From: Eledone cirrhosa
Taxonomy: Eukaryota
Reading direction: 5' to 3'
DNA: 64,000 bases
Assembly (NCBI GenBank): GCA_964016885.1
Contig: OZ024743.1
Location: 235,228,001 to 235,292,000 of the forward strand
Positions 19,371 to 63,772 of this stretch are shown here, in pieces. The notes beneath the pieces were generated by a model. That model saw only the letters and a program-made list of their open reading frames with translations. It was not told the origin of the DNA and searched no databases. Both the position numbers and the translations under genes were made by a program. Each line of letters begins with the position of its first letter. Positions within the stretch are counted from its first letter, which is position 1.

Positions 19371-19419
19371 GTATATATATATATGTGTATGTATATATAT
19401 ATATATATTTGTATATATA

Positions 19420-20899: not shown

Positions 20900-20901
<2 letters not shown>
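19420..20901 (+). mobile_element. RTE LINE family A, 5'-truncated, frameshift at ~20000
   Basis: GVHQGSVLSP and YADD motifs, a PHD-like insertion, FRYLG and RRLRWYGH motifs, 3' UTR and (GAT)n tail. Confidence 0.92.
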
Positions 20902-20930
<29 letters not shown>

Positions 20931-20949
20931 TGTATGTATATATATATAT

Positions 20950-21588: not shown

Positions 21589-21984
21589 ATATATATGTAT
21601 GTATATATATATGTATGTATATATATATATATATATATATGTGTATGTACGTTATTCCGGGTTGAATCGGAGGTGACCACAGTAAGTAAGGTACTCAATA
21701 CATTGCAGAGTATAAAAGTTTTAATATAGATGAGATTCTACAGGACTAGAACTGTTTCATTCTTTAGAAATCATCATGTATGTGTATATATATATATATA
21801 TATGTATGTATATATATATTTGTATATATATGTATGTATATATATATATATATATATGTATGTATATATATATGCATGTATATATATATATGTATGTATA
21901 TATATATATGTATGTATATATATATATATGTATGTATATATATATATATATTTGTATATATATGTATGTATATATATATATATA

Positions 21985-24066: not shown

Positions 24067-24098
<32 letters not shown>

Positions 24099-24136
24099 TG
24101 TATATATATGTATATATATATATATATATTTGTATA

Positions 24137-24175
<39 letters not shown>

Positions 24176-24184
24176 ATATATATA

Positions 24185-24702
24185 TCATCAATATCATCAT
24201 CATCATCATCATCGTTTAACGTCCATATTCCACGTTTCCATGGGTTTGGACGGGAGTTTTCCCACTTGAGGCAAGAGTGGTTGTCTTGCTCGCATAGGAC
24301 TGTCTGGCGGGTTTTCTACGGCTGGATGCCCTTCCTAACGCCAACCACATTTACAGTGTGGAACTGGAAGGTTTTTACCGTGTTACTTACACGGCCACAT
24401 TACAGCATGGACTGTGTGTTTTTTTTGTCGTGACACCTACACGACCTCATTTGTTTCGGACTGGGTGTTGCGGTACCAACATAACTTTACATTGAAAGTG
24501 GTGGTGTGGATGGGGTGGGGGTAGTGGGACGGGGTGTATTTTGTTAGAGGTGCCTACTGACTGTTGTAGGTTTCACTTTGTACTTAGGTAAGGCGGGTCT
24601 TCTCTATTACTGTGTAGCGCCAAAGATCTCGGTCCAGTGACATTGTCTTGGAGAGGTGTAAGTGTGTGAGGTCGGAATTTATCAAGTCGTCCCAGGTTTT
24701 TC
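24185..24702 (-). mobile_element. RTE family A 3' end fragment
   Basis: [12 protein letters not shown]...DRDLWR plus 3' UTR matching the other copies. Confidence 0.9.
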
Positions 24703-24824
24703 TATATATATATATGTATGTATATATATATATATGTATGTATATATATATATATTTGTATGTATGTATATATATGTATATATATATATATATGTATGTA
24801 TATATATATATATTTGTATGTATG

Positions 24825-24857
<33 letters not shown>

Positions 24858-25290
24858 ATATATATATATATGTATATATATGTATGTATATATATATATA
24901 TATATGTATGTATATATATATATATATATGTATATATATGTATGTATATATATATATATATATGTATATATATGTATGTATAATGTATATATATGTATGT
25001 ATGTATATATGTATATGTATGTATGTATATATGTATATATATGTATGTATATATGTATATATATGTATGTATATATGTATATATATGTATGTATATATGT
25101 ATATATAGTATGCTAGGGAAAGGATCAGGGGTGTATAACACTCCACACTGCATATGCTATAAGCGTTCTTTGTTATTTATTTATTATATTTATTATATAT
25201 GTATATATATGTATGTATATATGTATATATATGTATGTATATATGTATATGTATGTATATATGTATATACATGTATATATATGTATGTAT

Positions 25291-25879
25291 CTGGTAACAT
25301 GTATCCCAGTACAACCTGTCTCATGGTCGGGTCATTGACGACTAAATTGGCAACCCCACCAAGGTTTCTTGGTGAGGAGGGTGACTTTGGACATCCTGCA
25401 TGACTAAAAACAAAACCTGTAAAAGGGCAAAAGAGCTCTTAAGAGTCAAATGCCATCCAAAATCACCGGGAGAGATGACCCCTTAGCCTTTGTCAAGGCA
25501 GAATTCTAGGAGAAGGAAAACTCTGATATAACACCTGCAACCCTGATGGTATCCAATGATGTTGACTTGTTCTTCTTTTTTGGTAAATATCATCTTGGTT
25601 AAGAGAGTGGGACTGGCTTTGTGCAGTGCCTTTGCTCACTATAAAAGCTTCACGGCACAGGCATTGCTTTATATCTGGAGATCTCTCTGCACTTGTCATC
25701 ACATGGTACCATGGGCCCAGCACTATGTGTCAATAATTGTCACAAGTGTAGTGTTTGTACCAGAGTTTTCAAGTCGCTGGCTGGACTAAAAAGTCACACT
25801 CGTTCAGCGCATCGGTAGGGGTTCTCCTACATGGATATAAAGTAGTGGCCGTACTCGAAAACGAGTTGGCAACCACCAT
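25291..25879 (+). mobile_element. Bipartite non-autonomous RTE-B SINE, copy 2
   Basis: Near-identical to 20950-21588 and 29850-30446. Confidence 0.85.
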
Positions 25880-25909
25880 ATGTATGTATATATGTATGTA
25901 TATATATTT

Positions 25910-26489
25910 AGCAGTATTGGTTATTGAGTAGTCGCCACTTTAGCAGGGTGGTAGAATCAGTGGTCGTTACTTTAACAGGGTAGATGATTGAAGGTCGTTA
26001 GTTGCCAGTGTGGTAAGTGATAGTATCCTCGTTGGATTATCTTGTTGACATAGACGTGAAGGAAGGTCCCTCGATCTATTTACCATCTATTTACAATATT
26101 CCTTTCGTCAGGTCGCCAATTCCAGCAGCATGGATTATAGATGTTATTGAGACACGAGTAACATAACAATGATTTCAACAGCACTAATTAGAGATGAAAT
26201 GTATGTTTATTTATATGGTTGAAGTTACAGATAAAAAGAGGTTACAAAAGGGAATGTGCCATTGCGCCGTTAAGCCGGCGAGGCTAGGGGGTGCAATATC
26301 TCACTGTTACATTATGCGTGTTGCTGGCTCGAAGTTTCTGGTACAAGAGAGAGATTCTTCAAATCTTCGCGGGGAATTTCTTCCTCAGGGCGCGTAGGGA
26401 TACATCCTCTTCTACTGGCGCTGATTGGCTGAACTGAGCCAAATCACGCACAGAGAATGTATGTGAGCCCGCGGAATGTAGGTCACTAC

Positions 26490-26490
<1 letters not shown>
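25910..26490 (-). mobile_element. LTR (~26120-26490) plus PBS-like site and truncated internal sequence
   Basis: Minus strand starts TGTAGTGACCTACATT, sharing ~140 bp with 50395-50535. TGGCGACC PBS-like motif at 26111-26118. Confidence 0.55.
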
Positions 26491-26526
<36 letters not shown>

Positions 26527-26529
26527 TGT

Positions 26530-27420
26530 ATCATCATCACCGTTTTACGTCCGTTCTTCCACGCTAGCATGGGTTAGACGGGTTGTCCTGTTGTGGGCAG
26601 TGTCTGGTCGGCTGACCATGCCTTGCTCATACAGGAACTGATCTGGCTTGATTTCTACAGCTGGATGCCCTTCCTAACACCAACCTCATTTACAGTGAGT
26701 GCTGGGTGCTTTTTCGTGGCGCCTACACGTCCACTTTACAGTGTGGGCTGGGTGCTTTTTTGCCGTGGCACCTCCACGACCACCTTGCGGTGGGGGGGGG
26801 GGGGGCATATTGTCTATATGCTTCAGCATGTACCCATGGGAGGTCGGGTACCCTGTATTACTGCGTGACGCCAGAAGTCACGGTCGTGTGTCATTGACTT
26901 TGAGAGGTGTAGTTGGGTAAGGTCGGCTTTTATCACCTCATCCCAAGTCATCTTGGGTCTCCCCACTCCGCGGTTTCCATCAACTTCTAGTGCTCTGCAC
27001 CTTTTTATGCAGCTGTCATCCTTCATACGCATCACATGTCCATACCAGCGTAACCGCCTCTCCTGCACGCAGCATTTGATTCCTCTTATGCTCAGTCTCT
27101 CTCTCAATTCATTTATGCTTTGTCGTTCACGTATATTACTGTTACACATCCATCGGAGCATGCAGGCTTCGTTTCTCTCTAATCTACGTAAGTCTTCCAC
27201 CTTCAGCGCCCAGGTCTCACTACCATGCAACATCGCTGTTCGGATACACGCATCATACAGTCTGCCTTTCATTCTGAGGGAGAAGCCTTTTGCAGCTAGC
27301 AGTGGTAGTAGTTCCCTAAACTTCTTCCATCCCGTTCTTACCCTAGTTATTGTACTTTCTGAGCACCCACCTCCGTTGCTAATTCGGTCACCTAGGTAGC
27401 AGAAGCTGTCTGCTAATTCG
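26530..27420 (-). mobile_element. RTE family A-related LINE 3' fragment (distinct subfamily)
   Basis: SFCYLGD...RRLRWYGH...GRPKMTW plus a related 3' UTR. Confidence 0.88.
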
Positions 27421-27431
27421 GTCACCTATGT

Positions 27432-27469
<38 letters not shown>

Positions 27470-27487
27470 GTATATATGTATGTATAT

Positions 27488-29804
27488 ATGAAGATTTTCT
27501 CAATCTCATTCCAGAAAGTCCTGTGAAAGTAGCTCTCTCAGAACCTCCGATGCTTGTGGAGGTTGCAGTGGCTATCTCGAAGCTGAACAGTGGAAGGTCT
27601 CCAGGTATGGATGGCATGCATGCTGAGCTCCTACAATATGGTGGTGAGAGACTCCTGCAACATCTTCACTCTTTGTTTGGCAGGATATGGGCTAATGAAT
27701 CCGTACCTGAGGACTGGAGAGATGCAGTAATGGTGGTCTTGTACAAGGGAAAGGGTAACAGGAATGATTGTGGGAACTACAGAGGTATATCATTGCTTTC
27801 TGTCGTAGGGAAAGTTTTATGTAGGGTGCTTCTGGACCGTCTGCTGACACACATTGCAGATTGTGTCCTTACTGAAAGTCAATCTGGTTTTCGTGCTGGA
27901 CGCGGCACTATTGAGATGATCTTCTCAGCTAGACAGCTCCAGGAGAAGTGGATGGAACAAGGTTTGGATCTGTATCAGGTTTTTGTCGATCTGACAAAGG
28001 CTTTCGATACTGTCAACAGAGATGCATTATGGAAGGTTCTCCAGAAACTTGGTTGCCCTGATAAGTTCCTTGCTTTAGTTAGGTCTTTCCATGATGACAT
28101 GAAGGCTTGGGTTAATGTCGGAGGTAACATGTCGGAGCCTATCTCAGTAAAAAATGGAGTGAAACGGGGATATTGCAGCACTGACCCTGTTTGCCATATA
28201 CTTTGCAATGGTTTTCTGTATTGCATTCAGGAATTGCGAGCATGCTGTTTACATCCGATATCGAACCTCAGGCAGCATATTTAACATCAGGCGCTTTGCT
28301 GCAAAGACAAAAGTATTTACATCAATCATAAGAGACCTCTTGTATGCAGATGATTGCGATCTTGTAGCGCACACAGAGAGTGATATGCAGCACATTTTGA
28401 ATGCATTTTCTGACGCTTGCACTGCCCTAGGATTGACTGTCAGTCTCAAGAAAACCGTCATCATGTACCAACCTGCCCCTGGTAAGCAGTACACTGAACC
28501 AAATATCTATGTGTATGGTAAACGACTTGGAGTGGTTGATCAGTTTGTCTACCTGGGAAGCACTGTCAATCGATACAGCAACCTTGACAGTGAAATCTCA
28601 CTTAGGATTAGGAAAGCAAGTGATGCTTTCGGAAAGCTAGAAAGGCGACTCTAGGGTCGTCGAGACATATGCAGGAGGACAAAGGTAAAGGTGTACAAGG
28701 CATGTGTGCTCTCTTGTAGTCTTTATGCCTGCGAGACCTGGGTCACATATCGACACCACCTTAAGCAATTGGAGCGTTTCCATCAGATGTGTCTCAGACG
28801 GATCCATGGCGTTCACTGGAGGGACCACATCAGTGATGTCGAGATTTTGGAAAGCTCTATGTGTGACAGTATAGAAGCTCTTGTGCTTAAGCAACGACTC
28901 CATTGGAGTGGTCACCTTGCCAGGATGAAGGATTCTAGAATACCAAAACAACTCTTTTATGGAGAGTTGGTTAAAGGAAAACGACCGCCACATAAACCAA
29001 AAAAGAGGTATAAGGATTCCTTGAAAGCCTCTTTGAATGACGCTAACATCTCTGCTGATACATGGAAAAATATTGCTGCTGATCGTAATAAATGGAGAAA
29101 GACTGTATATGAGGGAAAAGTTGCCTTTGAGGCATCTCGAATCGCATACGAGAAAGTAAAGCGGGATGTGAGGAAGGGCATTGCTGATGCACTTACAGGC
29201 AGTGAGGGTCCTCCTATGGTGCTGACATGCAGCGTCTGTGCGAGACTCTGCCTAAGCAAAGCTGGACTCGAAAGTCATCTTCGCAGTCATAAAGTAAGAC
29301 CAGTGGTTGACTACCAGGCTGCTGTTGGAGATGCTACTCATCATGCTTGCCAAACATGTGGTAGAGAATGTAAATCAGCAGGAGGGCTCAAGCGACATGC
29401 AAAAGTACATGAACTCCAACGACAGCCGGCTATTCCCAGTGAATGTTTTGGTTGCCGACTCTGTGCAAGACATTTTAGATCATTGGCTGGGCTAAAAAGC
29501 CACATTCGATCGCAGCGCTGTTAGTTGCTATCGTGTGTGTGGGTGTGTATAGGTATGTTTATGTGTGTGCGTGTGTGTGTATATATATATGTATATGTAT
29601 ATTATTATTGTTGTTGTTGTCGTTATTATTATTGTTGTTATTATTATTATTATTGTTATTAATGTATATGTGTGTATGTATATATATATATGTGTGTATA
29701 TATGTATGTGTGTATATATATTTCTTTTTTTTAAATTTATTTATTAATATTTTTTTTTTCTCCTCGTGCAATGGCCATACTCGATAACGAGGGGGCAGCC
29801 ATCA
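27488..29804 (+). mobile_element. RTE LINE family B (BovB-like), 5'-truncated and disrupted, with C-terminal C2H2 fingers
   Basis: GRSPGMDG, GNYRGISLL, QSGFR, FVDLTKAFD and YADD motifs. Frameshift at ~28170 and stop at 28652-28654. Three C2H2-type fingers at 29228-29515. Confidence 0.92.
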
Positions 29805-32342: not shown

Positions 32343-32903
<561 letters not shown>

Positions 32904-33148
32904 AAAGCAACAATATACGCACACACATATACAACACACATCCCAACAACAGACACACAGACACAAACAACAATAACAACAACACACACATCAACAACAA
33001 CAATAGCAACATACCCAGAAACAACAACAACAGACACGCAGACACAAACAACAATAACAACACACACAACAACGATAACACACACGGAGACAACAACAAC
33101 ACACATCAACAACAGCACACATCAACAACAACAACACACACGCATTCA

Positions 33149-35851
33149 ATGCCTCTCACCACCACCACAATCCTAACAAACACACAGACACAGAAAACAA
33201 GTAATGGCAGTAGCACAGAAATCAGAGAAATAAGGGAAAGTAATAAGATTAAAAGGAAAAGGAGATGGGAGACTAAGGACAGAGAGAATAACCAAGACGA
33301 ACACACAGACACACAAAATAGGGTAGATAACAACATTGAGCCAGTGGAAAGAGACAGGAGTAATTATGAGAGACATAGAAACAACCATGAGGCTGTTGGT
33401 GGAAATAGAAATAGAAACAACACAACTAACAATAACAATAGCACTAGTACACATAAAGCAGCAGCCTGGAACTCTCCGTTTTATAATCCCTCCGATAAAT
33501 CATTCGACCTGCGACGAGTCCACGCCACGACTTTACCATTTAACAAACGCACGCAGTTGCCGTCGCAGGTCGATGAACAAACAGAAGCACAATTTAGTAT
33601 AGCTAAATCCGAACTTAGAAATATTATAGAACAGTATAGCAAGAAGCATAATAGAATAGAGGCCCAGCAACTGGGAGAAAAATCTGCAAATGGCTTGCGT
33701 AAGCTCATGCAGCGCTCACGTAATGGAGAGATAGCATGCTTTCCAACAGACAAGTCTGGCAGAATGTCGGTTGACAGCCTGCCAAACTACATCCAGGCAA
33801 TGCAACCCCACATCACTAACACAAGAGAGGTAACACCACAGGAGCATGAGGATAGAGAAAAAGCCCTCAATGCCCATATGGTGATGTGGACGAATATAAT
33901 GCAGCCCAACAAAAGGACTGCCAACAACTTCCAGGCCTGGAACAATGACGTGCCGGCGTTGTATGGGCTTCGAAAAGACCATAAAACGGGCTGTGACCCT
34001 GTCGCGGGACCACCAACACGGCCAGTCTGTGGAGCTAACATTGCTAGTAACTACAGACTGTCCTACTTCCTCTCCCTGATCATACGCCCCATCATTGAGA
34101 TGTCCCCAGATGTATGTGACAGCACGGAGGACCTCCTCAGCAGAATCGGCGTGAGTAACCGATCTGGGGACCTAACAAACTGCATAATAGGCAGTATGGA
34201 TGTTGTGTCCCTGTATCCATCTATTGACGTGGATTTTGCTGTGGAGAAATGCGTAGAAATGATCAGCGAGAAAAAGGTTGAGTTCCGTGGGATTGATACC
34301 AGTGAGCTGGGACTTCTACTTAAGCTTACCCATAGTAATAGTTACCTAGACACTTATGACCTTAGCAACCTGTGCCCTACAAGACCAGCAAGAGGCAGAC
34401 CACCTACCATTACCTCTATGGCCAAGAAAACCCACACAGATAGATGGAACGGGTGGACCAGAGCAATACGGACACCCGAAAACCACGATGAACTGAAGAA
34501 AATGATTGCACATGCGGTAGGGGCCAGCATAAAATTAACCCTTAAGGAACATATGTTCAAATTTAATGGAAAAACATATGCCCAAGAGGAAGGAGCAGCC
34601 ATTGGTGTTAGCATTGCAGGCGACATAGCTAACTTATTCATGGTATGGTTGGACAGTAGACTTAAACTTAAACTTAAAGAACAATTAGAAGACAGCTTAA
34701 CCCTGATAATGTACTCCCGCTACGTAGATGATATAAACATCGTAGTTAAGACACCCCCACTAGAGAACAGTCAGGAACTAGAGAAAAACACAATGGAAAG
34801 CATCCAGCAAATAGCAAACTCCATCCACCAGAGCATTAGAGTTACTACAGACTACCCAAGTAGACACCCCAACCATCGATTACCTGTACTAGACACAGAG
34901 CTCTGGTTAGATACCATTAACAACCAAAAACAAATCCTCCATCCCCATTATGCCAAACCCATGACTTCCAAACATCTGATCCACCGAAACTCGGCTATTT
35001 CGGACCATACCAAAATCAACATACTGATTGCGGATTTGGTACGGGTGATGAGAAATGTGTCCCGCATGTGCAACCCCGAAGAACTAGAGAGACACATACA
35101 ACACTTCATCCACCGTATGCAGTTCTCTGGCTACAATCAGAGAGATAGAATCAGAGTGTATAGAGGAGCCAGAACCAAATGGGAAAAAATGGTAAATAAT
35201 GACATAAATGGGACCTGCCCCTTGTATAGGAGCAAATTTTGGAATAGAATAGAAAGAATTAGGAACAAGGCCAATAGAATAAACTCATGGTATGATAGCA
35301 ATAAATACCAGAGTGTAATGTTCATCAATACAACCCCTAGAGGCGAACTAGCCTACAAATTTAGAAGGGCCCTAAATAAACATAAACTCAATATTAAGAT
35401 AGTAGAAAGACCAGGTACCTCCATAAAAACACTTATTAGCAAGACATACCCGTTCCAAAGACCCTCATGTATAGATAAGAAATGTATAACCTGTAAAATA
35501 AGCCCCCATATTAACTGTAAAACTAGAAATGTAGTGTATAGCATAAGATGTACTGAAGGACAATGTAGAAACAAAAATATAGTGTACATAGGTGAGACAG
35601 CTCGTAGTATAGGGGAACGGATAAATGAACACTGGCGAGACCTTCAAGATAATAAAGAATCATCTGTACTCTACCAACATGCTAAGATAGAACACAAGGG
35701 TAAATTAGAGAACATAGAAATAAAAATAGAATCCACACACAGAAAAGATGCAATGTTTAGGCAAATTACAGAGGCAGTAAGCATAAAAGAATTACAACCA
35801 AAATTAAATAGAAAATATGAGTGGAACAGCAACATCACAACTTACAATTAA
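33149..35851 (+). CDS. Penelope-like element 2 (Neptune/Poseidon-like) RT + GIY-YIG, uninterrupted ORF
   Basis: [32 protein letters not shown] and RYVDD motifs, a Cys-rich linker, and [18 protein letters not shown]. The ATG at 33149 is a guess; the ORF-track start lies in (TA)n. Confidence 0.9.
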
Positions 35852-37311: not shown

Positions 37312-37527
37312 AATCTTTTGATGTTGTAGACGCTCTTGTGTTCTTTTTTATATATACGGCTCTGCTCCAAAGCATAGAGCTAATTATTATGCTGCCAATA
37401 CCTTAACGGGACACGGGTAGATAATACCTAACTCCTATTAACCTAAGTATTTCTACGGCTCCCCCCGGTTGAGCTAAATCCTTATAACCTGTCCACCTTG
37501 TGTGTATGATTATAATTGATTGGCAGC

Positions 37528-40065
37528 ATGCTAACTAAAGACTACCTACCTATATCACTCAAGAACATCCCAACCCCATCTAGGACTACTTATGAGAAAT
37601 TACTGATAGCTAGTGTCAACTCCTTCGTTAAGCGTATTAGATGGCGCACTTTCCACTTCGATAGGAGAAATAAAAAATCAACGACAGTGTCCCCCAATAA
37701 CAAATTCGGTTTTAAAACCTATAGGAGCCCGCCCCATAACTCCATGCTAGATGGATTTGAGAATGACCTATCGCTAGTAAGGAATATTAAGTTTAAAAAC
37801 CCCCATGGGAATAGCAACAAATTCCGGATGAAACTGGAAACCTTAGTTAAGGACTTTAACGATAAAAGAGATATCCTGGTCACCTCGGACAAAACCAGAA
37901 ATATTTATAGCTTAAATTATGATATGTATCGTAGGTTTATATACAATGAATTAAATAGAAACTATAAAAAGACAACAAGCGCAAACTTAGATGAAATTAA
38001 TAAGGAAGCATGCGCAATAGTGGATAAACTAGGTCTGGAAAAGTATACCCAACCATATACCCCTAGGCAACCCAGGTTCACCCTTAAAGACCATAAGGCT
38101 GACTTCATTAGTAAACCCTCTGTTAGATTAATTAGCCCATCGAAGTCAGATATAGGAATTATCAGTAAGAAAATTTTAGACGGCATTATACCCACCACCA
38201 GGAGGAAAATATATCTAGAGCTATGGGAGAATACGGAAGAGGTTTTGAAATGGTTCTCAAGCCTTAGCAACCATAAATCCCTTAAATTTATACAATTCGA
38301 CATCGATGCGTACTACACCTCAATCTCCCCCATACTCCTTAATAAGGCCCTAATCATGGCCATGCAGAAAAGTGACCTCACTAGATATCAAATTGATGTT
38401 ATTCTTGCGGCCCGGAAAACGATAATCACATTTGAGGATGAATTGTGGACCCGAAAGAATACGCCCAGCGACTTCGACATCACAATGGGATCTAGTGACT
38501 CTACACAAGTAACGGACCTGGTAGGATTGTACCTCTTAAAGGAGTTACATGAGACATTACCACACTTGAAGGGCGGCTTATACCGTGATGACGCCCTCCT
38601 CACTCTCGAGTATAAAAAGTGCAATATAGAAAGAACTAGGAAGCAATTACGTAGGTTCTTTAAAAACTTTAATCTAAGTATTACCATAGATGCAAATGAT
38701 AAAACAGTAAACTTCCTAGACGCCACCCTTGACCTAGAAAGTAAAACATTTGCACCCTACCATAAACCTAACGATATACTAACATATGTAAACGCCAGCT
38801 CTAACCACCCCAAATCAGTCCTAAACGCTATTCCCAGGGGGGTCTCTAACAGAATTAGCAGACTGTCCTATAATGAGAGTATCTTCAACTCCAATGCAGA
38901 GTATTATGACAGGGCTCTAGCAGAATCTGGTTACGGGAGTAGATTATTATATATACATAAGGACTCTCAAACCATGAGTGTGAAACCTACCAACATAATC
39001 ACACATAGTATGGCCACAAAGCCTAACCAAATTAGAGGCAAGAATAATAGTAAGAACCCTAATGGCGGTAACCTAGCTAAATGTAAACCACGTAAAGACA
39101 ATACTAGAGTCCCCCACCACAACTCTAAAACAGTAAATGATCACGCCATGAATATAAACCATCCGGGCTTAAGCAAAACAGACAACGCCACTAACGTTAA
39201 TAACGGAACCCTACAAAATAGTACGCACAGTAGCGAGACTCACCCCACAGATAAGAAAAATAGAAGAAGGAAAAACATGTGTTTTAACCCACCTTTTAAC
39301 TCTGAGGTCCTCACTAACCTCCCCAGAGTATTCTTCTCATTATTGGTAAAAACCTCCCCACCAGGCAATAGATACCGCAACATAATTAACAAAAACGTAA
39401 TTAAATTATCCTATTCGACCACACCTAACCTCGCATCACACCTAGCACGTACGAACATTAGGAAAACTAAGGAGGGATTCGAAGCAATTAAAATGGCAGT
39501 TAACCACCAGCAACCGACTACACTGGAAAATGGGCAACATAATAGCATCAATGAGCCATCTAATGATATAGAGGCACCTAGTGATAATGCTAGTAACCAA
39601 ACTTCGGGAGGTAAACTAACTAATCGAACCCGCAGTTGCAATTGTAGGCGGAGTAGTAACTGTCCCCTAAGGGGGGATTGCCTCATGAAAAACATAGTAT
39701 ATGCATGTGACGTAACCACACACAACTCTACCAAAACATATATAGGAGCAACGTCCAATACATTTAAAACTAGATTTAACGCGCATATATACACATTTAG
39801 ACACGACAGACATAAGAATGCCACCTCACTGGCGGGATACATCTCCTTCTTAAAAAATAATAGTACCCCATACAAACTTTTTTGGAGGAAGCTTACTAGA
39901 TCCACGCCATACCGACCGCAGAGCGGAAGTTGTGACCTGTGTTTACTGGAATGCCATGCCATAATACACTCTAAACTGAACCTGCTTAACAGGAAATCGG
40001 AAATTTTCTCCTCATGCCAACACAAAATCCTGAGTTCCTTCTTCTATTTTAAACCCAGCACATAG
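37528..40065 (+). CDS. PLE3 reverse transcriptase + GIY-YIG endonuclease
   Basis: SLKNIP N-terminus, then FVKRIRW, SDKT, LKDHK, FDIDAYYTSI, ITMGS, GLYRDD, FNPPF, NIVYAC..YIGATS..FKTRFNAH, CDLC and SSCQH motifs. Confidence 0.93.
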   Translation: MLTKDYLPISLKNIPTPSRTTYEKLLIASVNSFVKRIRWRTFHFDRRNKKSTTVSPNNKFGFKTYRSPPHNSMLDGFENDLSLVRNIKFKNPHGNSNKFRMKLETLVKDFNDKRDILVTSDKTRNIYSLNYDMYRRFIYNELNRNYKKTTSANLDEINKEACAIVDKLGLEKYTQPYTPRQPRFTLKDHKADFISKPSVRLISPSKSDIGIISKKILDGIIPTTRRKIYLELWENTEEVLKWFSSLSNHKSLKFIQFDIDAYYTSISPILLNKALIMAMQKSDLTRYQIDVILAARKTIITFEDELWTRKNTPSDFDITMGSSDSTQVTDLVGLYLLKELHETLPHLKGGLYRDDALLTLEYKKCNIERTRKQLRRFFKNFNLSITIDANDKTVNFLDATLDLESKTFAPYHKPNDILTYVNASSNHPKSVLNAIPRGVSNRISRLSYNESIFNSNAEYYDRALAESGYGSRLLYIHKDSQTMSVKPTNIITHSMATKPNQIRGKNNSKNPNGGNLAKCKPRKDNTRVPHHNSKTVNDHAMNINHPGLSKTDNATNVNNGTLQNSTHSSETHPTDKKNRRRKNMCFNPPFNSEVLTNLPRVFFSLLVKTSPPGNRYRNIINKNVIKLSYSTTPNLASHLARTNIRKTKEGFEAIKMAVNHQQPTTLENGQHNSINEPSNDIEAPSDNASNQTSGGKLTNRTRSCNCRRSSNCPLRGDCLMKNIVYACDVTTHNSTKTYIGATSNTFKTRFNAHIYTFRHDRHKNATSLAGYISFLKNNSTPYKLFWRKLTRSTPYRPQSGSCDLCLLECHAIIHSKLNLLNRKSEIFSSCQHKILSSFFYFKPST

Positions 40066-49001: not shown

Positions 49002-49922
49002 TGAAAAAAACAAGAAAAAAAAATGATTTCCCACTTAACTCCGATGGTCTTTTTCTACAAAGCTAGTGTTTCCGAGAGGTTTGAACATGTGAAAAGACAA
49101 ATGGTAGAGAAAACTCCGAGGAGGGAATTGATCCCGGTGTGGTGTGCGGTGGCAGGTGCACACCTATTTAATTTTATTTAAACGTATTTTAAAATAAAAA
49201 TACGTTTAAAATAACACAATCTAGCAAAAACTTCAACATTTAAAAGAAACGTGCAAATGATTCACCTTAAATGGTAATAGTCGTGAGAAATTGAATTGAG
49301 TCTAGCAATATTCATACTATGTTCATCCCACACCCTTCTCATTGTGAAAAAGAGGTGTGAATACATGTTAATGAATAGGAGTGCTGGTTAGTTTGGTCTG
49401 GACTTCCTCGCAGTACATGACACTTTTGCCGAGATTGATTTTCGAAGTTATAGGTAGGTATAATTATATATGTATATACATAGGTATTTGTCAGTAGGTA
49501 AGCAAATTTTTAAGTAGTAAATAGAAGGTTTTGTGTTAAACTGTATAGGGTGTTTAAAAAGCGGTGTGTTGAGGTAAGATAGCTTTGGACTGTTAATGTT
49601 TACATATGCAATACTTTTCTGTTTATAGTAGGCAGCGAATTGGCAGTTGTTGGAGTGCCAGATAGAATACTATTCGGTATTTATTCCAGTTCTCTGTGCT
49701 CCAAGTTCAAAACTCACTATGGTCAATTTTACCTTTCATCCTTTCGAAGTTGTTTAAAAAAAGTACCTCTCGAGCCATTGTCACTCCTTCCCTATCACTT
49801 TCTTTTTCTTTCTCTGGAAGAAATCGGCTGTGTTCAGACCAGTTGAGATAAAAGGATCTGCCGGCTGTTTTAGAATGTCACTACCGCCTCCCTACGACTC
49901 CTTACATACATAGATATATACG

Positions 49923-50535
49923 TGTAGTGACCTACATTCTGCGGGCTCACATACATTCTCTGTGCGTGATTTGACTCAGCTCAGCCAATCAGCGCCAGTA
50001 GAAGAGAATGTATCTCTACGCGCCCTGAGGGAAAAGTTCCTGTGTTGATTTGAAGAATCAGCCTCTCGCTTCCTGACTGTGAAAAGGTAAACAACTAACT
50101 TTCTTTTTTTCATATTCACACAACACTAGATCCTATTATTTTTTTCTCGGGGTCACCAATTATAACAGGACACTGGGTTGTATGTACAATATTTATTTAC
50201 GAAGATTGAGCTGAGTAGAGCTGAATAGCTGACATGCCAAGAGAGATGAAACAACGAATTAAGGAATTCAGGAGGCACGGTCTACTGACGGAAATGTTGC
50301 CAGGCCGTGGTTAAGTTGTTGTGTTACATGTTGGCTAGTGATTTTACGATGAAAGAAAGTTAGTTGTTTACCTTTTCACAGTCAGGAAGCGAGAAGCTGA
50401 CTCTTCAAATCAACGCGGGAACTTTTCCCTCAGGGCGCGTAGAGATACATTCTCTTCTACTGGCGCTGATTGGCTGAGCTGAGCCAAATCACGCACAGAG
50501 AATGTATGTGAGCCCGCGGAATGTAGGTCACTACA
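49923..50535 (-). mobile_element. LTR + tRNA-Trp PBS + inverted partial LTR forming a TIR-like unit with 4-bp TSD
   Basis: ~184-bp inverted arms (49923-50106 / 50352-50535), termini TGT..ACA, TSD TACG. PBS TGGTGACCCCGA on minus at 50147-50158. Confidence 0.8.
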
Positions 50536-51299
50536 TACGTGTCCACACATATGTACAACTGGTTATATATCACTGATGTATTGGTCGATTTAGATTTTAC
50601 TGTATTTTGTTGATGGTGTGTTAGGCGAAGAAATAAACTAAAGCAATTAGTGTTTGGCGATATTAAAAATGTTTCATTTTTTGAACTACCACAGTTTCAC
50701 CGCGCCACTCGAATTCATAAATTGTTCAATTTTATGAGACCACCTTTTACCATGTCATTCAGTGACTTCTTTTGCAAAATGATTTATTCGCCTTTCTGTA
50801 CACACTTCGGTTTTTACCTTTTGACACAGTCCACCACTAGTTTCCTCGAGGGGTTTACTGTTTTTACATATATCATACCCCTGGGTCACATTTAGCGAAA
50901 TGTTTTGTGTGCACTCTTTTTGATCGTTCAGATCAATTTTCTATGTGCAGCTTACTTTTTGCAAGCAAAAAGTTCTCGGGGGACTGATTGCTGGTCTTCT
51001 CAGTCTGGACAAGCTCCGCATTTCCATTTGCACTCCGAGTGGGAGCTGATGTCTGAGATGTCGCTGTAGTAGGTCCCTCAACTCCACATACCTCCATGGT
51101 TTGTCCTGCTGCCTGAATGCGATTACTAATTGGATTACTAATGAAAAATGTTATCACCAAATTGTATAAAATACCAATGTGGTGAACTTCAACTAATTAT
51201 TTACGGAAGATGTAAATTTTGTTTTCTTACTTTTCAAACACAGAATAAAAATGCTGTACCATTCCGTGGTCAATTATTATGAATATATTGCAGCCTGAT

Positions 51300-52260
51300 G
51301 GAAGTGAAAATGGTTCAAAGAGAGAAATCATTTTATTGTGAAATTTGTGATAAAAGAAGCTGGCAATTAAGTGAACATTTACGAACTCATACAGGAGAGA
51401 AACCACTGTGGAATTTGTGGAAAAGCATTTTCCTGTAATAGTAGTTTAAGGAGACATAGTTCATACAAGAGAAAGGCCATAGTTCATACAGGAGAAAGGC
51501 CATATGAATGTAAAATTTGTGGCAAATCATTTTCATTTGGCAGTAACTTAAGGAACCATATAATGACTCATGCAGGTACGAGCCCATATCAGTGTGAAAT
51601 TTGTGGCAAAACTTGTACATCTAATAGTAACTTAACAAAGCATGTAATGGTTCATACAGGAGAAAGGCCATTTAACTGTGAAATCTGTGGTAAATCATTT
51701 ATGTCCAGTAGTAACTTCAGAATGCACAAAATGCTTCATTCTGGGGACAGTCCATTTCAGTGTGAAATTTGTAGTAAATAATTTTCATCTAATTATAACT
51801 TAAACAAGCATATGACTGTTCATACAGGAGAGCAGCCATTTAACTGTGAAATCTGTGGTAAAGCATTCTCAAGAAAGTGTCATGTAACAAGACATAATTG
51901 TTTCTACTTTTGGCACAAGGCCAGCAATTACCCAGTACATTGCTGGTACTTTATTTTATCGACCTCTATGGATGAAAGGCAAAGTTAACCTCGGCGGGAT
52001 TTGAACTCAGATCGTAAAGGGACGTAACTATGCTGGAAAGCATATCAGACCCTCTACCGATACTGCCAATTCACAACAAGACATAATGTTGTTCACACAA
52101 CATTATGTGATAAGGCATTTTCAATCTGTGATAAGGCATTTTCATCCAATTATAATTTAAGCATCCATGTAATGGTTCATACAGGAGAGAAATCATTTAA
52201 CTGTGAAATCTGTGGTAAATCATTCTCAAGGAAAAGTCATGTGACTCGACATAATAAGTC
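51300..52260 (+). pseudogene. C2H2 zinc-finger pseudogene
   Basis: About 9 finger remnants with HTGERP linkers, frameshifts, a stop at 51779-51781, and a SINE inserted at 51899-52074 with 13-bp TSD aacaagacataat. Confidence 0.88.
51899..52074 (-). mobile_element. tRNA-derived SINE inserted in ZNF pseudogene
   Basis: TSD at 51886-51898 / 52075-52087. gatttgaactcaga B-box complement. Confidence 0.85.
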
Positions 52261-57082: not shown

Positions 57083-59210
57083 TGTAGCGGTTGTCTCCCT
57101 TGTTTTGATTAGGATCTAGACGGGAAGTGGAACCCTTTCTGCAACTTCCGGTCAGAGCCCTATAAAACTAACAACTTTAAGCTTCCTTTCTCTCTTTGCC
57201 TTTTCGGCACCAGGTCAAGAGCCTCTCATTTGGCTCTGCCATTAATTTGGCCAACAGGCGCCTGGCCTTAGCCAGGCGTCCTCTGCCAGCCGCGTTTGCC
57301 TGGCAATCAAAACGGTAACTACTAACTTTGCTTCATTCTAACATCATCCTCATCTTTGACATGTCAACTATACTATCTACCATTGTTAATTAAATATTAT
57401 ACACCAAACCATGTATTCCTTGTTACATTCATACAACCCAGTATTCTCGCTATATTGGTAACCCTAACGTGATACGAACACGCAGCCGTTCATCGCTATA
57501 AGTGGTCACCCCAAAAAAAGAAAAAAATAGCACATCTGGTTTCGTGTGAGTAACATTACGAATACACAGTAAATTTATCGACAAACTATGAAAATACTCA
57601 GTAAAAGAAACACACGCACACACGCACATGTGGAATTCGCACAGACAAACTTTTTCTCTCACGCATCAACTAACTGTCGCATTTCACCAATATATATATA
57701 TATATATATGTTTCTCGTTTCTTACAACGAACACTTTCAAAACAAAAAAAACAAAAAAACATTTCACGATATATATACATGTTTCTCGTTTCTTACAACG
57801 AACTCTTTCAAAAAAAAAAAAAAAAAAAAAAGAAATTTGATATTCTTCAAAAAACATTTCAACAGGAACATTTATTTTCGATGAACCATTGCATTTTTGT
57901 TCATCGTTTTGTTCATCGTTCAAGTTTTTTTTTTTTTCCCAAAGTTCACACCAATAATTATGCTGAGTGAAGCCTTTCTTTTTCATCATTGTCACTTTCA
58001 AAATTGCACTATCATTTTCTCGCGCGTTAGAAATATTATTTTTTTCAACCTTGTATTGGCACGTGTAGGCAGCACAAATTCTCGATTCACAGAGATGTCT
58101 CTACTCACAGACAGCCGCACGCTAGAGATAACATTTCTCACCAGGGATTCTTCAGCCTTAAGCTATATTCTTCTATTTGCCGGTTTATAAATTTACAATG
58201 TAAATTTACCGTTGATAACCGCGCATTTATTAAGAATGCTTATTTCTCTGGTCGCTGGCCTCTTGACCCTTCCAGGTCAACGCATTCTCAACATCGACCA
58301 TCAACTTCGGCTGCTATTTCTAGCACTTTGCGCAACTCATTTTTTCTAAAAAAATTTTTTTTACTGTGAATTTAAACACCGAATACGCTCACTCAGCGAG
58401 ACAACAGCAGCAGCAACAGCAATACATCAATACAGCTTCACCAAAGCCAGATAATTCATATTTGCAGCACTCTTCCTGTGAGAAAATCCATTCGGAGGTT
58501 GGAAATTTCACGATATACCACAGAACAGAAACCACCTGCATTCATTCTCTGGAACACACTTTCTTTCCTGCTGTCATGTGATTGCACACCTGTGAACTAT
58601 ATTTTGAACTTTGAGCTCTTCTATTACTTTTACTTTATTACATTGTATCTTTGGGTGATGGATAGATGGATGTCCAGTCGTTCTCTGGCCAAGAGCGGTT
58701 GGCTACCTTGATATCTATCATTGATTTTTCCAAACATTCTTTTGTCGTAATTTTCATGCCTGTTACAACATTCTCGCCAACTTGCTACATATTTTCATTT
58801 CGATTTTTATACACTAAAATTCTGGCGGGAGGTTATGTAGCGGTTGTCTCCCTTGTTTTGATTAGGATCTAGACGGGAAGTGGAACCCTTTCTGCAACTT
58901 CCGGTCAGAGCCCTATAAAACTAACAACTTTAAGCTTCCTTTCTCTCTTTGCCTTTACGGCACCAGGTCAAGAGCCTCTCATTGGGCTCCGCCATTAATT
59001 TGGCCAACAGGCGCCTGGCCTTAGCCAGGCGTCCTCTGCCAGCCGCGTTTGCCTGGCAATCAAAACGGTAACTACTAACTTTGCTTCATTCTAACATCAT
59101 CCTCATCTTTGACATGTCAAGTATACTATCTACCATTGTTAATTAAATATTATACACACAAACCATGTCTCGTTTTGTTACATTCATACAACCTCAGTAA
59201 TCTCGCTATA
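57083..59210 (+). mobile_element. Non-autonomous Gypsy-type LTR retrotransposon (TRIM/LARD-like)
   Basis: LTRs at 57083-57454 and 58836-59210 (TGTAGCG...CGCTATA), TSD ATCC. PBS TGGTAACCCTAACGTGAT matches tRNA-Trp 15/18. Purine tract ggcgggagg precedes the 3' LTR. No gag/pol seen. Confidence 0.9.
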
Positions 59211-59726: not shown

Positions 59727-60953
59727 ATGGGTAGAAATAACAAAATTGCCATGGTGATATCTATCGATGAAATTTGCGACAAAACTGGTCGATGTCCAAA
59801 AATAGAACATTGCCCGGAAGATCACACCTGCCATATCTGTACGGAACCCGAAAACTCGTTCCGTAATCGTTGGGTCGAATGTGGAACCTGTCGCATCTCT
59901 GTCTGCCTTCAATGCGCCACAGGCTTCCGGAAGATCCCAGGCCAAAATAAGAAACATCATATTGCTACGATGGATAGACTCTGGGAGATGGTCCAGATAA
60001 CAAACTGATCCTTTCAGTGCCTGGACTGTATGCCTGCTTCTCCCATTGCTGCGGAACAACAAAGACCGAAGATCGTGTCTTCTACCATTGTTCCTGAACA
60101 ACAACAACAAAAACCGAGGATCGTGTCTTCCTCTACCATTGTCCCTGAACAACAGCAAAAACCAACGACCGTAGCTTCTGCTACTACCCCCGTTGAAGGA
60201 CTTCATCAACAACAGCAACCCATGTCTTCCTCACCCGTTACTTTTCAACAACAACAACCGACGACTGTGTCTTCTACCATGCCTGTTGAAGGAGAAGAAC
60301 AACAACAAAAACCGACCGTCAATACGGAGTTTGAGGAAATACGGCAAATGATTTCCGCTTTAAGTCAAGAAATAGCGGAAATAAAATCAAGCGTTCGTGT
60401 AGAACCCCACAATGAGGGATCTTACCGGAGTGCCTTGTTAAAAAATCTCCGCGTACCTCATGTTGAACCTAGACGCATTGAGAATGCCACTGAATCTGCA
60501 AACCACGAAGTGATTGCCATTGGTGTGCCGGAAGACATAGTTGATCTTCAGGCATTTGCTGCCAGTTCATCCAAAGACCTGGGCTGTGCTCCTGCAAAGG
60601 GTGCTCTACGCCTTGGCCGACCAGGCCCGAAACCCAGGTTAATTAGACTGTCGTTTTCAAACTCAGCTGAGGCACGTTCATACCTTGTAGCCTCTGATAA
60701 AGCTAGGCGCGAAAGTCGGATTGCTTTCCGAACACGTCCTGGTCTTCCACCTGATGTCCGCCCAAAGTTGCGTGCTGCAACTTCCCTAAACCGCAGCTCG
60801 GCAGAACATGAAAGCTTCAGCCTACGAGATGATGGGCAGATATGGAAGTTTGTTAAGGCTGGCGAATCATGGAAAAGAGACACCAGCTGGTCTGAAAACA
60901 CTGTACCCACAACAACTGACAATAAAGAAACTGAAAAAACTCTGGGAAACTAA
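59727..60953 (+). CDS. LINE ORF1 (PHD-like finger, Q-rich repeats, coiled coil, RRM-like region) with one in-frame TGA at 60006-60008
   Basis: CHIC...WVECGTCRISVCLQC...N*SFQCLDC; the two track ORFs are in the same frame. GVPE and RLGR..PRLIRL motifs are typical of CR1/L2-group ORF1. Confidence 0.75.
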
Positions 60954-61012
60954 ATCAGAACAACCTGCCATCCCCTGCACATAATCATAGACTGGAATCA
61001 AAGTACAAACTG

Positions 61013-63772
61013 TTGTCCTTGAATGCACGTAGTCTATGCAATAAGATTCATCTTTTTGACTCCTACGTCAAAAGTATCAACCCGGACTTCATTACAGTCA
61101 CGGAAACTTGGGCACATCCCTTACTCTGTGATGGGGTTTTCAGCATGACTGGCTACAACCTGTTTCGTAAAGACCGTATTAATCGTCGTGGTGGTGGTGT
61201 AATGGTCTACGTTCGGTCAAATCTGTTGGCAATTCCTTGTGCTGATTTGAACCAATCACAGCAGGAAGTTTTTTTCTGCGATATACGTATGACCATGTCA
61301 ACACTGCTACTTGGAGTCGTTTACCGTCCCCCAAATTACCATCAGGACACTCAACTTTGTGATATCCTCAGAGCTGCTGCCAGGAAGACAGCCACTTATG
61401 TTTTCATTGCAGGTGACTTCAATCACCCTGAGATTGACTGGGAGACCTTTCGTTGGCCGCCAAGTGCAAATGACTTCCTTGAGCTGGTGCTGGACTCGAG
61501 TTGGTCCCAGGTGGTCACCTCCGCAACGAGAGGTGACAACACTCTGGACCTACTCTTCACCACTACTCCTGAAACGGTCATTAGTGTTACTGCTGAGGAA
61601 CCTTTAGGTGACTCTGATCATGCTATGATCATTGCCAATCTATCCCTCATGGGCAGTAACAAGAACCACAACCATCTCCAAACTGCTCACTTTGACTGGA
61701 ATAAAGCAGACTGGAACTGTTACTGCACCGAGTTGCAACGGCCAAACTGGCTTGAGTTCTATGACTCTGGAGATGTCAACACTGCACTCCAGAACATCCT
61801 GAGCTCAATATGGACAGCATGTGCAGCATCGGTGCCACGTAAGCGGAAAAAACATCCCAAAAGCGCAATTTGGGAGACTGCAGCAGTCCGTCTTGCCAGA
61901 AAAGAACGGTGCAATGCTGAACGTGAGTACAAACTTCACAAATCAGACATTAATAGGAAGAGGCGAAATAGATCGTCCAACCACCTCAAACAGGTGACAA
62001 AAAAGGCAGTGCTTCAATTTGAGCAGCGCATAGCAACCAGCCCTGACAGTAAGGTGTTCTGGAAGTATGTTCACTCAAAGCAGAGGCCTCACTCTCCAGT
62101 TGGTCCTCTTCGCAATCCCCACACAAGCCAGGTTACTGATGACCCCAAGGAATGCGCAGAGCTCATTGCTGAATGCTATGCAGGCATTTTCACCATTGAA
62201 GACCAGAGTGTACCATCTCCACCACCTATGACACCGGACTCTATTACAACCATGGAATTTACACCTGCAATGCTGCGACGTAACCTAAAAAATAAACGCA
62301 ACCATGCCTCTCCTGGTCTTGATGGTGTTACGTACCTGCTTCTTAAACGTGGTGGGTACTTCCTTCTACACCAGTTATCACGCTTCTTCCAATTCTGTCT
62401 GAACAACAGTGCTACTCCAGAACAGTGGAAAACTGCCAGTGTCATTCCTCTGTTCAAAAAGGGTGACCGCACATCACCTGTGAACTATCGTCCAGTCAGT
62501 CTTACTAGTTGCATCGCCAAACTGATGGAATCCTGTGTCAGAGAAACACTTTGGAACTTCTGGAGCTCTCACAGTCTTATCCGGCCCTCGCAATTTGGAT
62601 TTATCCCCAACTCCAGCTGCTGTGATCAACTTATAGAGTTTCTTGAGGACATCACCCGGATCACTGATGGCGGCTTATGGGTGGATGTTGTTTACCTTGA
62701 CTTTGCGAAGGCCTTCAATTCTGTGCCACACAAAAGGCTTATGGCAAAACTCTCTGCAATGGGTGTGAAGGATGATCTTTTTAACTGGTTGAAGTCCTTC
62801 ATACTCAGTCGAAGAGAGGTAGTCACGGTTCTGGGACAGCATTCCTCACCATATGAGATGTCATCTGGTGTACCTCAGGGATCTGTTCTTGGCCCCCTTT
62901 TGTTTGTGGCATATATTAATGACATAGATGCCAACTTAAGGAATGCCACAGTACTAAAGTACGCAGACGACATCAAGCTGTACCTTGAGATAAAAAGGAC
63001 AGATCCTGAACACTATAGTTCTTGCTTGCAGTCTGACCTGGACACAATGCAACAGTGGATCTCAGACTGGCAACTCAAGCTAACTGTGGACAAGTGCACC
63101 ACCATGCATTTTGGGAGTAAAAACCCAGCGTCCACATACTCCCTCCACAGCACTAATATCAAGAAGTCTTCCTGTGAACGTGACCTGGGCATTACGGTCA
63201 GCAGCGATTTGCGTTGGACGAGGCGCGTCTCTAAAATTGTCAAGAGGGCCGAGGGTGTCTTAGCATCACTCAGCAAGACCTTTGTCAGCCGCTCTCCAGA
63301 TATCTATTTAAGGCTGTATACAGCTATGGTGCGACCACACTTAGAATTTGCATCACCAGTCTGGAACCCCTATCTTGCTCAGGACATTGACCGCCTGGAA
63401 ACTGTTCAGAGACGTGCAACCAAGCGAATACCCTCCATCAGGCATCTACCATACTCTGAGCGCCTTGCTTCCCTGGGCATGGATTCATTGAAGCTCCGAC
63501 GCCTGGCAACTGACTTGGTAAACACCCACAAAATTGTTAACCATGTTGCCAACAACAACCCTGAGTACCTTTTCGATTTCCATGTGTCTAACACACGTGG
63601 ACAGGCCCACAAAGTAAGAAAAAAGCACAGTTCCCATGACTTTTGGAAACATTTTTTCACGCTCAGAGTTGCTGAAGCATGGAACAAACTACCTGCATCA
63701 GTTGTTAGCTGTCGAGACACTGCATCCTTTAAGGCCTCCATGCTTCCCGAGATCCGCCAACACTACAGCTAA
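61013..63772 (+). CDS. CR1/L2-group LINE ORF2: AP endonuclease + reverse transcriptase, intact
   Basis: NARS, TETW, RKDR..GGGV, YRPP, GDFN, LDL and SDH endonuclease motifs; NYRPVSLTS, QFGF, YLDFAKAF, GVPQGSVLGP, YADD and ERDLG RT motifs. 3' UTR ends in (ATT)n at ~63875. Confidence 0.95.
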   Translation: MSLNARSLCNKIHLFDSYVKSINPDFITVTETWAHPLLCDGVFSMTGYNLFRKDRINRRGGGVMVYVRSNLLAIPCADLNQSQQEVFFCDIRMTMSTLLLGVVYRPPNYHQDTQLCDILRAAARKTATYVFIAGDFNHPEIDWETFRWPPSANDFLELVLDSSWSQVVTSATRGDNTLDLLFTTTPETVISVTAEEPLGDSDHAMIIANLSLMGSNKNHNHLQTAHFDWNKADWNCYCTELQRPNWLEFYDSGDVNTALQNILSSIWTACAASVPRKRKKHPKSAIWETAAVRLARKERCNAEREYKLHKSDINRKRRNRSSNHLKQVTKKAVLQFEQRIATSPDSKVFWKYVHSKQRPHSPVGPLRNPHTSQVTDDPKECAELIAECYAGIFTIEDQSVPSPPPMTPDSITTMEFTPAMLRRNLKNKRNHASPGLDGVTYLLLKRGGYFLLHQLSRFFQFCLNNSATPEQWKTASVIPLFKKGDRTSPVNYRPVSLTSCIAKLMESCVRETLWNFWSSHSLIRPSQFGFIPNSSCCDQLIEFLEDITRITDGGLWVDVVYLDFAKAFNSVPHKRLMAKLSAMGVKDDLFNWLKSFILSRREVVTVLGQHSSPYEMSSGVPQGSVLGPLLFVAYINDIDANLRNATVLKYADDIKLYLEIKRTDPEHYSSCLQSDLDTMQQWISDWQLKLTVDKCTTMHFGSKNPASTYSLHSTNIKKSSCERDLGITVSSDLRWTRRVSKIVKRAEGVLASLSKTFVSRSPDIYLRLYTAMVRPHLEFASPVWNPYLAQDIDRLETVQRRATKRIPSIRHLPYSERLASLGMDSLKLRRLATDLVNTHKIVNHVANNNPEYLFDFHVSNTRGQAHKVRKKHSSHDFWKHFFTLRVAEAWNKLPASVVSCRDTASFKASMLPEIRQHYS

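What the first reader, a model, noticed from the sequence alone, without database searches (positions are those of the whole stretch)
49919..50539. An LTR folded into a MITE: LTR + tRNA-Trp PBS + inverted U3 copy, inserted with a 4-bp TSD
Seen: at first sight this is a TGT..ACA TIR element with TSD TACG. On minus it reads as a complete 375-bp LTR (50535-50161) followed by a perfect 12-nt tRNA-Trp PBS (TGGTGACCCCGA). The LTR end (taaatattgtacatacaacccagtgtcctgttata) is homologous to the LTR end at 57390-57454. The other terminus is an inverted ~184-bp copy of the LTR's own 5' end, so both ends are U3 ends. Known: Gypsy integrases and Ginger DNA transposases share ancestry and make 4-bp TSDs at TG..CA ends. 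Inference: a retrotransposon-derived unit with two identical att ends was integrated as such, possibly a family bridging LTR elements and Ginger-like MITEs.
Basis: partly seen in the sequence, partly recalled or inferred. Interest (0 to 1): 0.75.

Follow-up and report, generated by a model that had tools for sequence, protein, structure and literature searches.

The report
Retrotransposon misfire with two left ends
This 613-base insert is a one-off, folded-back copy of a Gypsy-type jumping gene that has the element's left end at both termini and a 4-base target duplication; it likely arose when reverse transcription primed on the wrong spot and the integrase pasted the product in anyway, and other mirror-ended copies in the genome show this recurs, but none of those tested has multiplied as a DNA transposon.

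Summary
The anatomy is real: a 375-bp LTR, a 12-nt tRNA-Trp PBS, a short leader and an inverted copy of LTR bases 1-184, with TSD TACG confirmed by an empty site. It is not a MITE or Ginger family. Its junction occurs twice in 3.0 Gb, and the second case is an independent internal inversion in a normal two-LTR element. The parents are non-autonomous Gypsy elements with CsRn1-clade features. The junction uses the best leader/U3 complementarity (12 of 14 nt), and the inverted arm ends exactly at the PPT-defined LTR end, which points to a mis-primed plus-strand cDNA integrated by two U3 ends. Nine of 307 sampled clusters of this LTR group, this one included, have inverted LTR parts (six two-U3, three with an outer U5 end inverted). 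Four have exact 4-bp TSDs, one 3 of 4, four are unresolved; three junctions sit at the PBS or the tRNA copy. The two further junctions tested are single-copy. Verdict: a recurrent reverse-transcription by-product, inert so far, but a concrete one-step route to LTR-derived TIRs, a step the Ginger paper left open.

The parts
49919..49922 (.). Left target-site duplication TACG
   Evidence: empty paralogous site has one TACG
49923..50106 (+). Inverted copy of LTR bases 1-184 (U3 end outward), the second att end
   Evidence: 178 of 184 identical to the other arm; nearest relative among 31 other U3 segments compared is the own LTR
50100..50106 (-). Junction microhomology: 7 nt exact (AAAGAAA on minus) inside a 12-of-14 match between leader and reverse-complemented U3
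   Evidence: best 14-mer match between the first 163 nt after the LTR and the LTR reverse complement
50107..50146 (-). Leader of the parent family (A-rich), cut 54 nt after the LTR end
   Evidence: matches the normal leader of L003, L005, L006, L007, L009, L030 up to the junction
50147..50158 (-). tRNA-Trp primer-binding site TGGTGACCCCGA (12 nt)
   Evidence: fits the CsRn1-clade PBS in PMC2582038 section 6
50161..50535 (-). Complete 375-bp LTR, TGT...ATA ends
   Evidence: in 3' LTRs of relatives a polypurine tract abuts the TGTAG end
50536..50539 (.). Right target-site duplication TACG

Best explanation
The insert is a dead-end cDNA of a non-autonomous Gypsy element with CsRn1-clade features that likely formed when a plus strand stalled 54 nt past the LTR, in an A-rich leader, and primed on U3 in the opposite direction, giving a duplex with the U3 end at both termini that the helper's integrase likely inserted as one piece. 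Shown: the parts, the 4-bp TSD with an empty site, the microhomology, the exact end of the arm at the LTR terminus, single copy, and analogous inverted-end insertions. Inferred: that the switch happened during reverse transcription; that the duplex was completed either by fold-back plus a second plus strand, or by mutual priming of two stalled plus strands from co-packaged genomes; that integration was by the family's integrase in trans. After insertion it behaves as an inert 184-bp inverted repeat: a segmental duplicate nearby likely recombined between the arms.
For: Family-typical 4-bp TSD and empty site. Inverted arm runs exactly to base 1 of the LTR, the physical end of a cDNA. The junction is the best leader/U3 complement and is reused independently at C28:39853897 (L002/L037), where the inverted piece shares variants with its own LTRs rather than with this insert. 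Analogues have junctions at reverse-transcription landmarks: PBS nt 16 of 18 (L076, TSD CATA/CATA), PBS start with two U5 ends (L078, CTTA/CTTA), 3' LTR end plus 4 PBS-like nt (L084, CTTT/CTTC), PBS plus about 20 nt of leader (L096); L077 has two U5 ends and ATCA/ATCA. 3 inverted pairs among 75 clusters in the first 100 of 1971 listed ends, against 0.11 expected by uniform placement, P 0.0002. A sister-LTR copy encodes RT, RNase H, integrase and the CHCC motif.
Against: Sequence cannot show when the switch happened. Four of the nine inverted clusters have no clean TSD: L096 has two intact ends but ACAT/ACTA, L097 lies in a TA run with a one-base offset, L087 and L098 have an eroded end. L076's TSD lies in a CATA-rich run, so chance is higher there. 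The duplicate L049 has the same left arm but continues as LTR 185-195 rather than into the junction, which a longer original arm could also explain. No listed read-derived contig bridges the window's own junction (table cut). The chance model ignores clustering of insertions.
Confidence: 0.72

Rival explanations
1. Two cDNAs or two elements entered this site in opposite orientation (an inverted dimer), and the unstable centre was later deleted between microhomologies, leaving the present junction.
For: L049 shows the left arm joined to LTR 185-195 (also a 151-nt record in another study). Double insertion at one site is documented in Drosophila (10.1101/158386, passages). Arms of L077 and L078 carry different family haplotypes.
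Against: The 11 extra bases in L049 carry 186A and 191A, found in 1 and 0 of 28 other LTR records, while the two arms share no private variant over 184 nt, so they were more likely taken from the right LTR later. The same microhomology is used in L037, which is not a dimer. TSDs of the family show no target preference (PMC2582038).
Confidence: 0.12
2. A normal element inserted first; a later chromosomal double template switch replaced its internal region and 3' LTR with an inverted U3 copy.
For: The region is rearrangement-prone (inverted segmental duplicates). L037 shows that an inverted patch can return to the element.
Against: The second switch would have to fall exactly on both LTR termini, where the two ends share only TA-A; flank is duplicated directly (TACG...TACG), not inverted. 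Several analogues end just as exactly.
Confidence: 0.1
3. It is a member of a mobile TIR (MITE or Ginger-like) family derived from this LTR.
For: 184-bp TIRs, TGTAG ends and a 4-bp TSD fit the general Ginger description (PMC2836005 passages).
Against: Junction found twice, once with two U3 ends; two other junctions once each; target does not fit Ginger1 or Ginger2; no coding capacity.
Confidence: 0.03
4. Assembly or read fold-back artefact.
For: No listed contig bridges the window's junction.
Against: Arms differ at 6 sites, 3 of them CpG-type; direct TSD with empty site; the left arm with its private variants occurs in a second place in the assembly and in a record of another study; the same junction exists on another chromosome with other variants.
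Confidence: 0.03

Closest known systems
Complex LTR-retrotransposon insertions made by template switching (Sabot and Schulman 2007, PMC1950507; passages read; also 10.1101/452573, first 10,000 of 16,032 characters)
   Same: Aberrant cDNA made before integration and inserted as one piece with a normal TSD.
   Different: Those are direct-orientation, three-LTR fusions with ordinary U3 and U5 ends ('inverted' occurs 0 times in PMC1950507). Here the switch reverses direction and yields two like ends.
CsRn1 clade of Ty3/Gypsy (CsRn1, PwRn1, AgCR; PMC2582038, passages and section 6 read)
   Same: tRNA-Trp PBS, 4-bp unspecific TSD, TGT...ATA/AAA LTR ends; CHCC Gag motif in the sister-LTR copy L081.
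   Different: The insert has no coding region and no U5 terminus; its direct parents are non-coding 2.6-2.9 kb elements.
Self-priming of strong-stop DNA in HIV-1 (PMC1919501, one passage and two reference titles)
   Same: A stalled strong-stop 3' end primes on a nearby complement instead of transferring.
   Different: Described there for minus-strand DNA as a competing side reaction; here a plus-strand product is inferred and it reached the germ line with a TSD.
Ginger1 and Ginger2 DNA transposons (PMC2836005, passages)
   Same: TGTNR ends, 4-bp TSD, TIR length within 40-270 bp.
   Different: No transposase, no CCGG/CCGT or RTATAY target, no amplification.
HIV-1 proviruses with inversions (PMC8264403, passages)
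   Same: Inversions are a recognised defect class, and template switching is named among the causes of defects.
   Different: The passages seen treat inversions as a defect category of amplified proviral sequences and say nothing of two like ends or TSDs; L037 is the closer match.
DIRS-1 (PMC3950715, search listing and start of abstract only)
   Same: Inverted LTRs.
   Different: DIRS uses a tyrosine recombinase; this family uses a DDE integrase and normally has direct LTRs.

Membership tests
CsRn1-clade Gypsy (parent family) | PBS complementary to tRNA-Trp | tested here: met
   18-nt match in sister copies L082, L096
CsRn1-clade Gypsy (parent family) | 4-bp TSD without target preference | tested here: met
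   solo LTRs and two-LTR elements
CsRn1-clade Gypsy (parent family) | LTR ends TGT...ATA or TGT...AAA | tested here: met
CsRn1-clade Gypsy (parent family) | CHCC Gag signature and PR-RT-RH-IN order | tested here: met
   Only in L081, a copy whose LTR shares the first 146 bp at 86-89%; the insert and its direct parents are non-coding. The protease motif was read from the translation, it gave no Pfam hit
CsRn1-clade Gypsy (parent family) | Placement by RT or IN phylogeny | not tested
   no tree built
MITE | Short, non-coding, TIRs and TSD | tested here: met
MITE | Many homogeneous copies at different sites | tested here: not met
   2 junction hits, 1 with two U3 ends; 44 hits for the LTR subfamily motif
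MITE | Autonomous DNA transposon with the same ends | not tested
   no Ginger transposase search was run; the ends are explained by the LTR family
Ginger1 | TIR 40-270 bp, TGTNR end, 4-bp TSD | tested here: met
Ginger1 | TSD CCGG or CCGT/ACGG | tested here: not met
   TACG
Ginger2/Tdd | Preferred 6-bp target RTATAY | tested here: not met
   empty-site target ATACGT
Ginger1/Ginger2 | Integrase-like transposase between the TIRs | tested here: not met
   245 bp between the arms are LTR, PBS and leader
Autointegration product (definition recalled) | Intact LTR end at the inner junction | tested here: not met
   inner junction is at LTR base 184
Template-switch cDNA integrated as a unit | One TSD around the whole unit, empty site | tested here: met
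Template-switch cDNA integrated as a unit | Formed before integration | not testable with these tools
   inferred from exact ends and junction positions

The most novel reading that the evidence does not exclude
Direction-reversing priming errors at the PBS, leader and LTR ends turn a few percent of this clade's insertions into units with two like att ends, including near-full-length elements with 195-bp inverted U3 termini (L084). The same error on an integrase-coding copy would create a Ginger-like TIR element in one step, making this the general mutational route from LTR retrotransposons to integrase-based DNA transposons.
Probability: 0.2. Interest if true: 0.75.

Novelty: new variant of a known kind. 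Interest (0 to 1): 0.5.

Why it matters
It records in the germ line which reverse-transcription intermediates mis-prime and shows that an integrase likely accepts U3+U3 and U5+U5 end pairs with normal spacing. The Ginger paper says the chain of events from an LTR element to a TIR element is unclear and suggests two chance insertions; these copies give a one-step alternative whose rate can be counted. Practically, such copies look like MITEs to annotation tools and leave long inverted repeats that can recombine. The insert itself has no sign of function.

Tried and rejected
MITE/Ginger family: rejected on copy number and target. Chance TSD: rejected by the empty site. Common descent of this insert and L037: rejected, each inverted piece follows its own LTR variants and flanking leader. 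Two independent insertions at one base in the two duplicates: rejected, L049's arm is identical to the left arm at 184 of 184. A direct genome-wide pattern for convergent LTR ends could not be run, so pairs were taken from capped lists: 100 of 1971, 44 of 44, 100 of 183, 100 of 418 and 100 of 123 hits; the list gave no new inverted pair, and the patterns were modelled on arms already found, so 9 of 307 is not an unbiased rate. ARAGORN found no tRNA in L102-L105 and L108. Folding gives the expected hairpin (-241 kcal/mol), which says nothing beyond the arms' identity. Literature: searches showed no title or abstract start describing two-U3 insertions with TSD; subscription papers and supplements were not searched, so earlier reports may exist.

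Full report
Observation. The stretch reads as described. On minus: TSD, a 375-bp LTR (50535-50161, TGTAG...GTTATA), AT, the PBS TGGTGACCCCGA (50158-50147), leader to 50107, then LTR bases 184 to 1 inverted (50106-49923), and the TSD. The arms match at 178 of 184. The PBS complements the last 12 nt of this genome's tRNA-Trp(CCA) with CCA added. 'U3' here means the PPT-proximal end; the transcription start was not mapped.

The TSD is real. A paralogous copy of the flank 69 kb away (L050) has one TACG and no insert. A 688-nt contig from another run also shows the empty site and follows the window's right flank to 51120; it carries L050's variants, so it may be an allele of either copy.

The parent family. 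A DNA search of the genome gave 86 matches from 40 scored of 2624 candidates. They include solo LTRs and seven two-LTR elements of about 2.6-2.9 kb without long ORFs. Six of these seven have exact 4-bp TSDs and one lies in microsatellite; a polypurine tract abuts the TGTAG end of the 3' LTRs. Sister subfamilies share the first 136-146 bp of the LTR; together they give 1971 hits for the LTR end. One sister-LTR copy (L081) encodes RT, RNase H and integrase in Gypsy order and a CX2HX9CX3C motif in a frame different from the upstream gag ORF. PMC2582038 (passages and section 6) lists tRNA-Trp PBS, 4-bp TSD, TGT...ATA/AAA ends and CHCC as CsRn1-clade traits. No tree was built. The host looks like an octopod (3.0 Gb, C2H2 clusters, AT microsatellites), which is my inference.

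Not a MITE family. The junction pattern, with up to 2 mismatches, has 2 hits. The second (L002/L037) is an ordinary two-LTR element with TSD GCAC in which LTR bases about 20-184, inverted, replace about 50 nt of leader. Its inverted piece shares variants with its own LTRs, not with this insert, so it is a separate event at the same microhomology. That microhomology (7 nt exact, 12 of 14) is the best match between the leader and the inverted LTR.

The error recurs. Pairing 390 distinct LTR positions from five capped hit lists gave 307 clusters, 9 with both orientations, this one included. The least biased list holds 3 among 75 clusters, against 0.11 expected under uniform placement. Two-U3 type: L076, LTR plus 16 of 18 PBS bases joined to inverted U3, CATA/CATA; L084, a full element plus 4 PBS-like bases plus inverted U3 1-195, CTTT/CTTC; L096, LTR, PBS, about 20 nt of leader, 6-nt microhomology, flanks ACAT/ACTA, so no TSD; L097, switch inside the 3' LTR, TA run, unresolved; L087, one end eroded. 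Outer U5 inverted: L078, junction at the PBS start, CTTA/CTTA; L077, ATCA/ATCA; L098, junction at the PBS, other end eroded. So 4 of 9 have exact TSDs, 1 has 3 of 4, and 4 are unresolved. The junctions of L076 and L096 have one hit each; the other six were not counted.

Mechanism. From standard LTR reverse transcription (established knowledge): plus-strand DNA starts at the PPT, so its 5' end is LTR base 1, and both strands have a free 3' end at the PBS before the second strand transfer. A plus-strand 3' end that primes backwards on U3 copies to base 1 and stops, giving two U3 ends. A minus-strand 3' end that primes on its own strand copies to the U5 end, giving two U5 ends. L076 and L078 are these mirror cases, with junctions in or at the PBS. 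In this insert the plus strand would have gone 54 nt into an A-rich leader first; pausing at A-tracts is recalled, not tested. The duplex could be completed by fold-back plus a second plus strand, or by two stalled strands priming each other. Different haplotypes in the arms of L077 and L078 and a SINE in only one arm of L076 hint at two templates there. This insert's arms share both subfamily markers (154A, 172A) and do not decide. Integration by the family's integrase is inferred from the 4-bp TSD. The arms differ by 3.3%, within the 1-10% seen between LTR pairs of normal copies, consistent with identity at insertion.

A complication. An inverted segmental duplicate (L049, 98.8% over 1987 bp) has the same left flank and an arm identical to the left arm, but it continues as LTR 185-195 and then joins the inside of another repeat. 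A record from another study shows the same join. The 11 bases carry 186A and 191A, seen in 1 and 0 of 28 other LTR records, while the arms share no private variant (some of the 28 loci overlap the same elements). The simplest reading is recombination between the arms after insertion, then truncation. A longer original arm is not excluded; either way the unit had two U3 ends.

Comparison. It works like the template-switch insertions of PMC1950507 (passages) but with reversed direction, and like strong-stop self-priming in HIV-1 (one passage). It resembles Ginger elements in ends and TSD length but fails target and transposase tests. That paper calls the path from LTR element to DNA transposon unclear and proposes two LTRs lying by chance in opposite orientation (passages); L084 has that geometry around a whole, non-coding element from one insertion. 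Eight literature searches showed no report of two-U3 insertions with TSD, within the library's limits. Unchecked notes of this scan describe the same architecture in other genomes; I take them as leads only, and they pointed me to PMC1950507.

Verdict. Real, single-copy, most likely a mis-primed cDNA integrated by two U3 ends (0.72). New variant of a known kind. Interest 0.5: the insert is inert, but the class is recurrent, countable and bears on a stated open question.

Noticed in passing
L076:1141-1325, L084, L086, L096, L097 (LTR position about 290-320): A SINE-like piece sits at one fixed LTR site with the same 3' join but different 5' truncations, in the 5' LTR of L084, L086, L097, the single LTR of L096 and only the inverted arm of L076; partner LTRs of L076, L084 and L086 lack it. 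Normal reverse transcription should copy it to both LTRs or neither.
   Followed up: partly
L077, L078, L098: Insertions with an inverted U5 outer end; L077 and L078 have two non-canonical ...TAAA ends and exact 4-bp TSDs.
   Followed up: yes
L102:1502-1527 (G000:C1:94753291): An LTR-like end followed by about 25 nt complementary to tRNA-Trp, longer than the usual 18-nt PBS; many dispersed hits of that motif may be the same.
   Followed up: no
window 57083-59210: Related non-autonomous two-LTR element, TSD ATCC, LTRs 96.8% identical, internal part 77% like the family's.
   Followed up: partly
window about 25940-26490 (-): Solo LTR of a sister subfamily, about 553 bp, in a TA microsatellite.
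   Followed up: partly
L080, L081, window 25940-26490: The longer sister LTRs contain a PBS-like TGGCGACC motif and leader-like sequence inside the LTR, as if the LTR grew by capturing another element's PBS and leader.
   Followed up: no
G000:C4:235206400-235210000 (L049, L050, L069): Empty and filled copies of the insertion site lie in tandem, inverted relative to the window, in a C2H2 zinc-finger cluster.
   Followed up: yes
G000:C4:353394904-353486314 and C4:277407662-277440858: Arrays of tRNA-Trp-like 3' ends; three copies checked are tRNA-Trp(CCA) genes.
   Followed up: partly
window 3596-5251 and about 51470-52260; 11914-14063, 32510-35851, 37516-40065; 19353-29524; 60935-63772: C2H2 zinc-finger ORFs, several reverse-transcriptase ORFs that look Penelope-like or LINE-like on reading; not searched against libraries.
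   Followed up: no
L039-L045: A subfamily whose LTRs begin at base 142 of this LTR (234 bp) forms 1.8-2.1 kb two-LTR elements.
   Followed up: no
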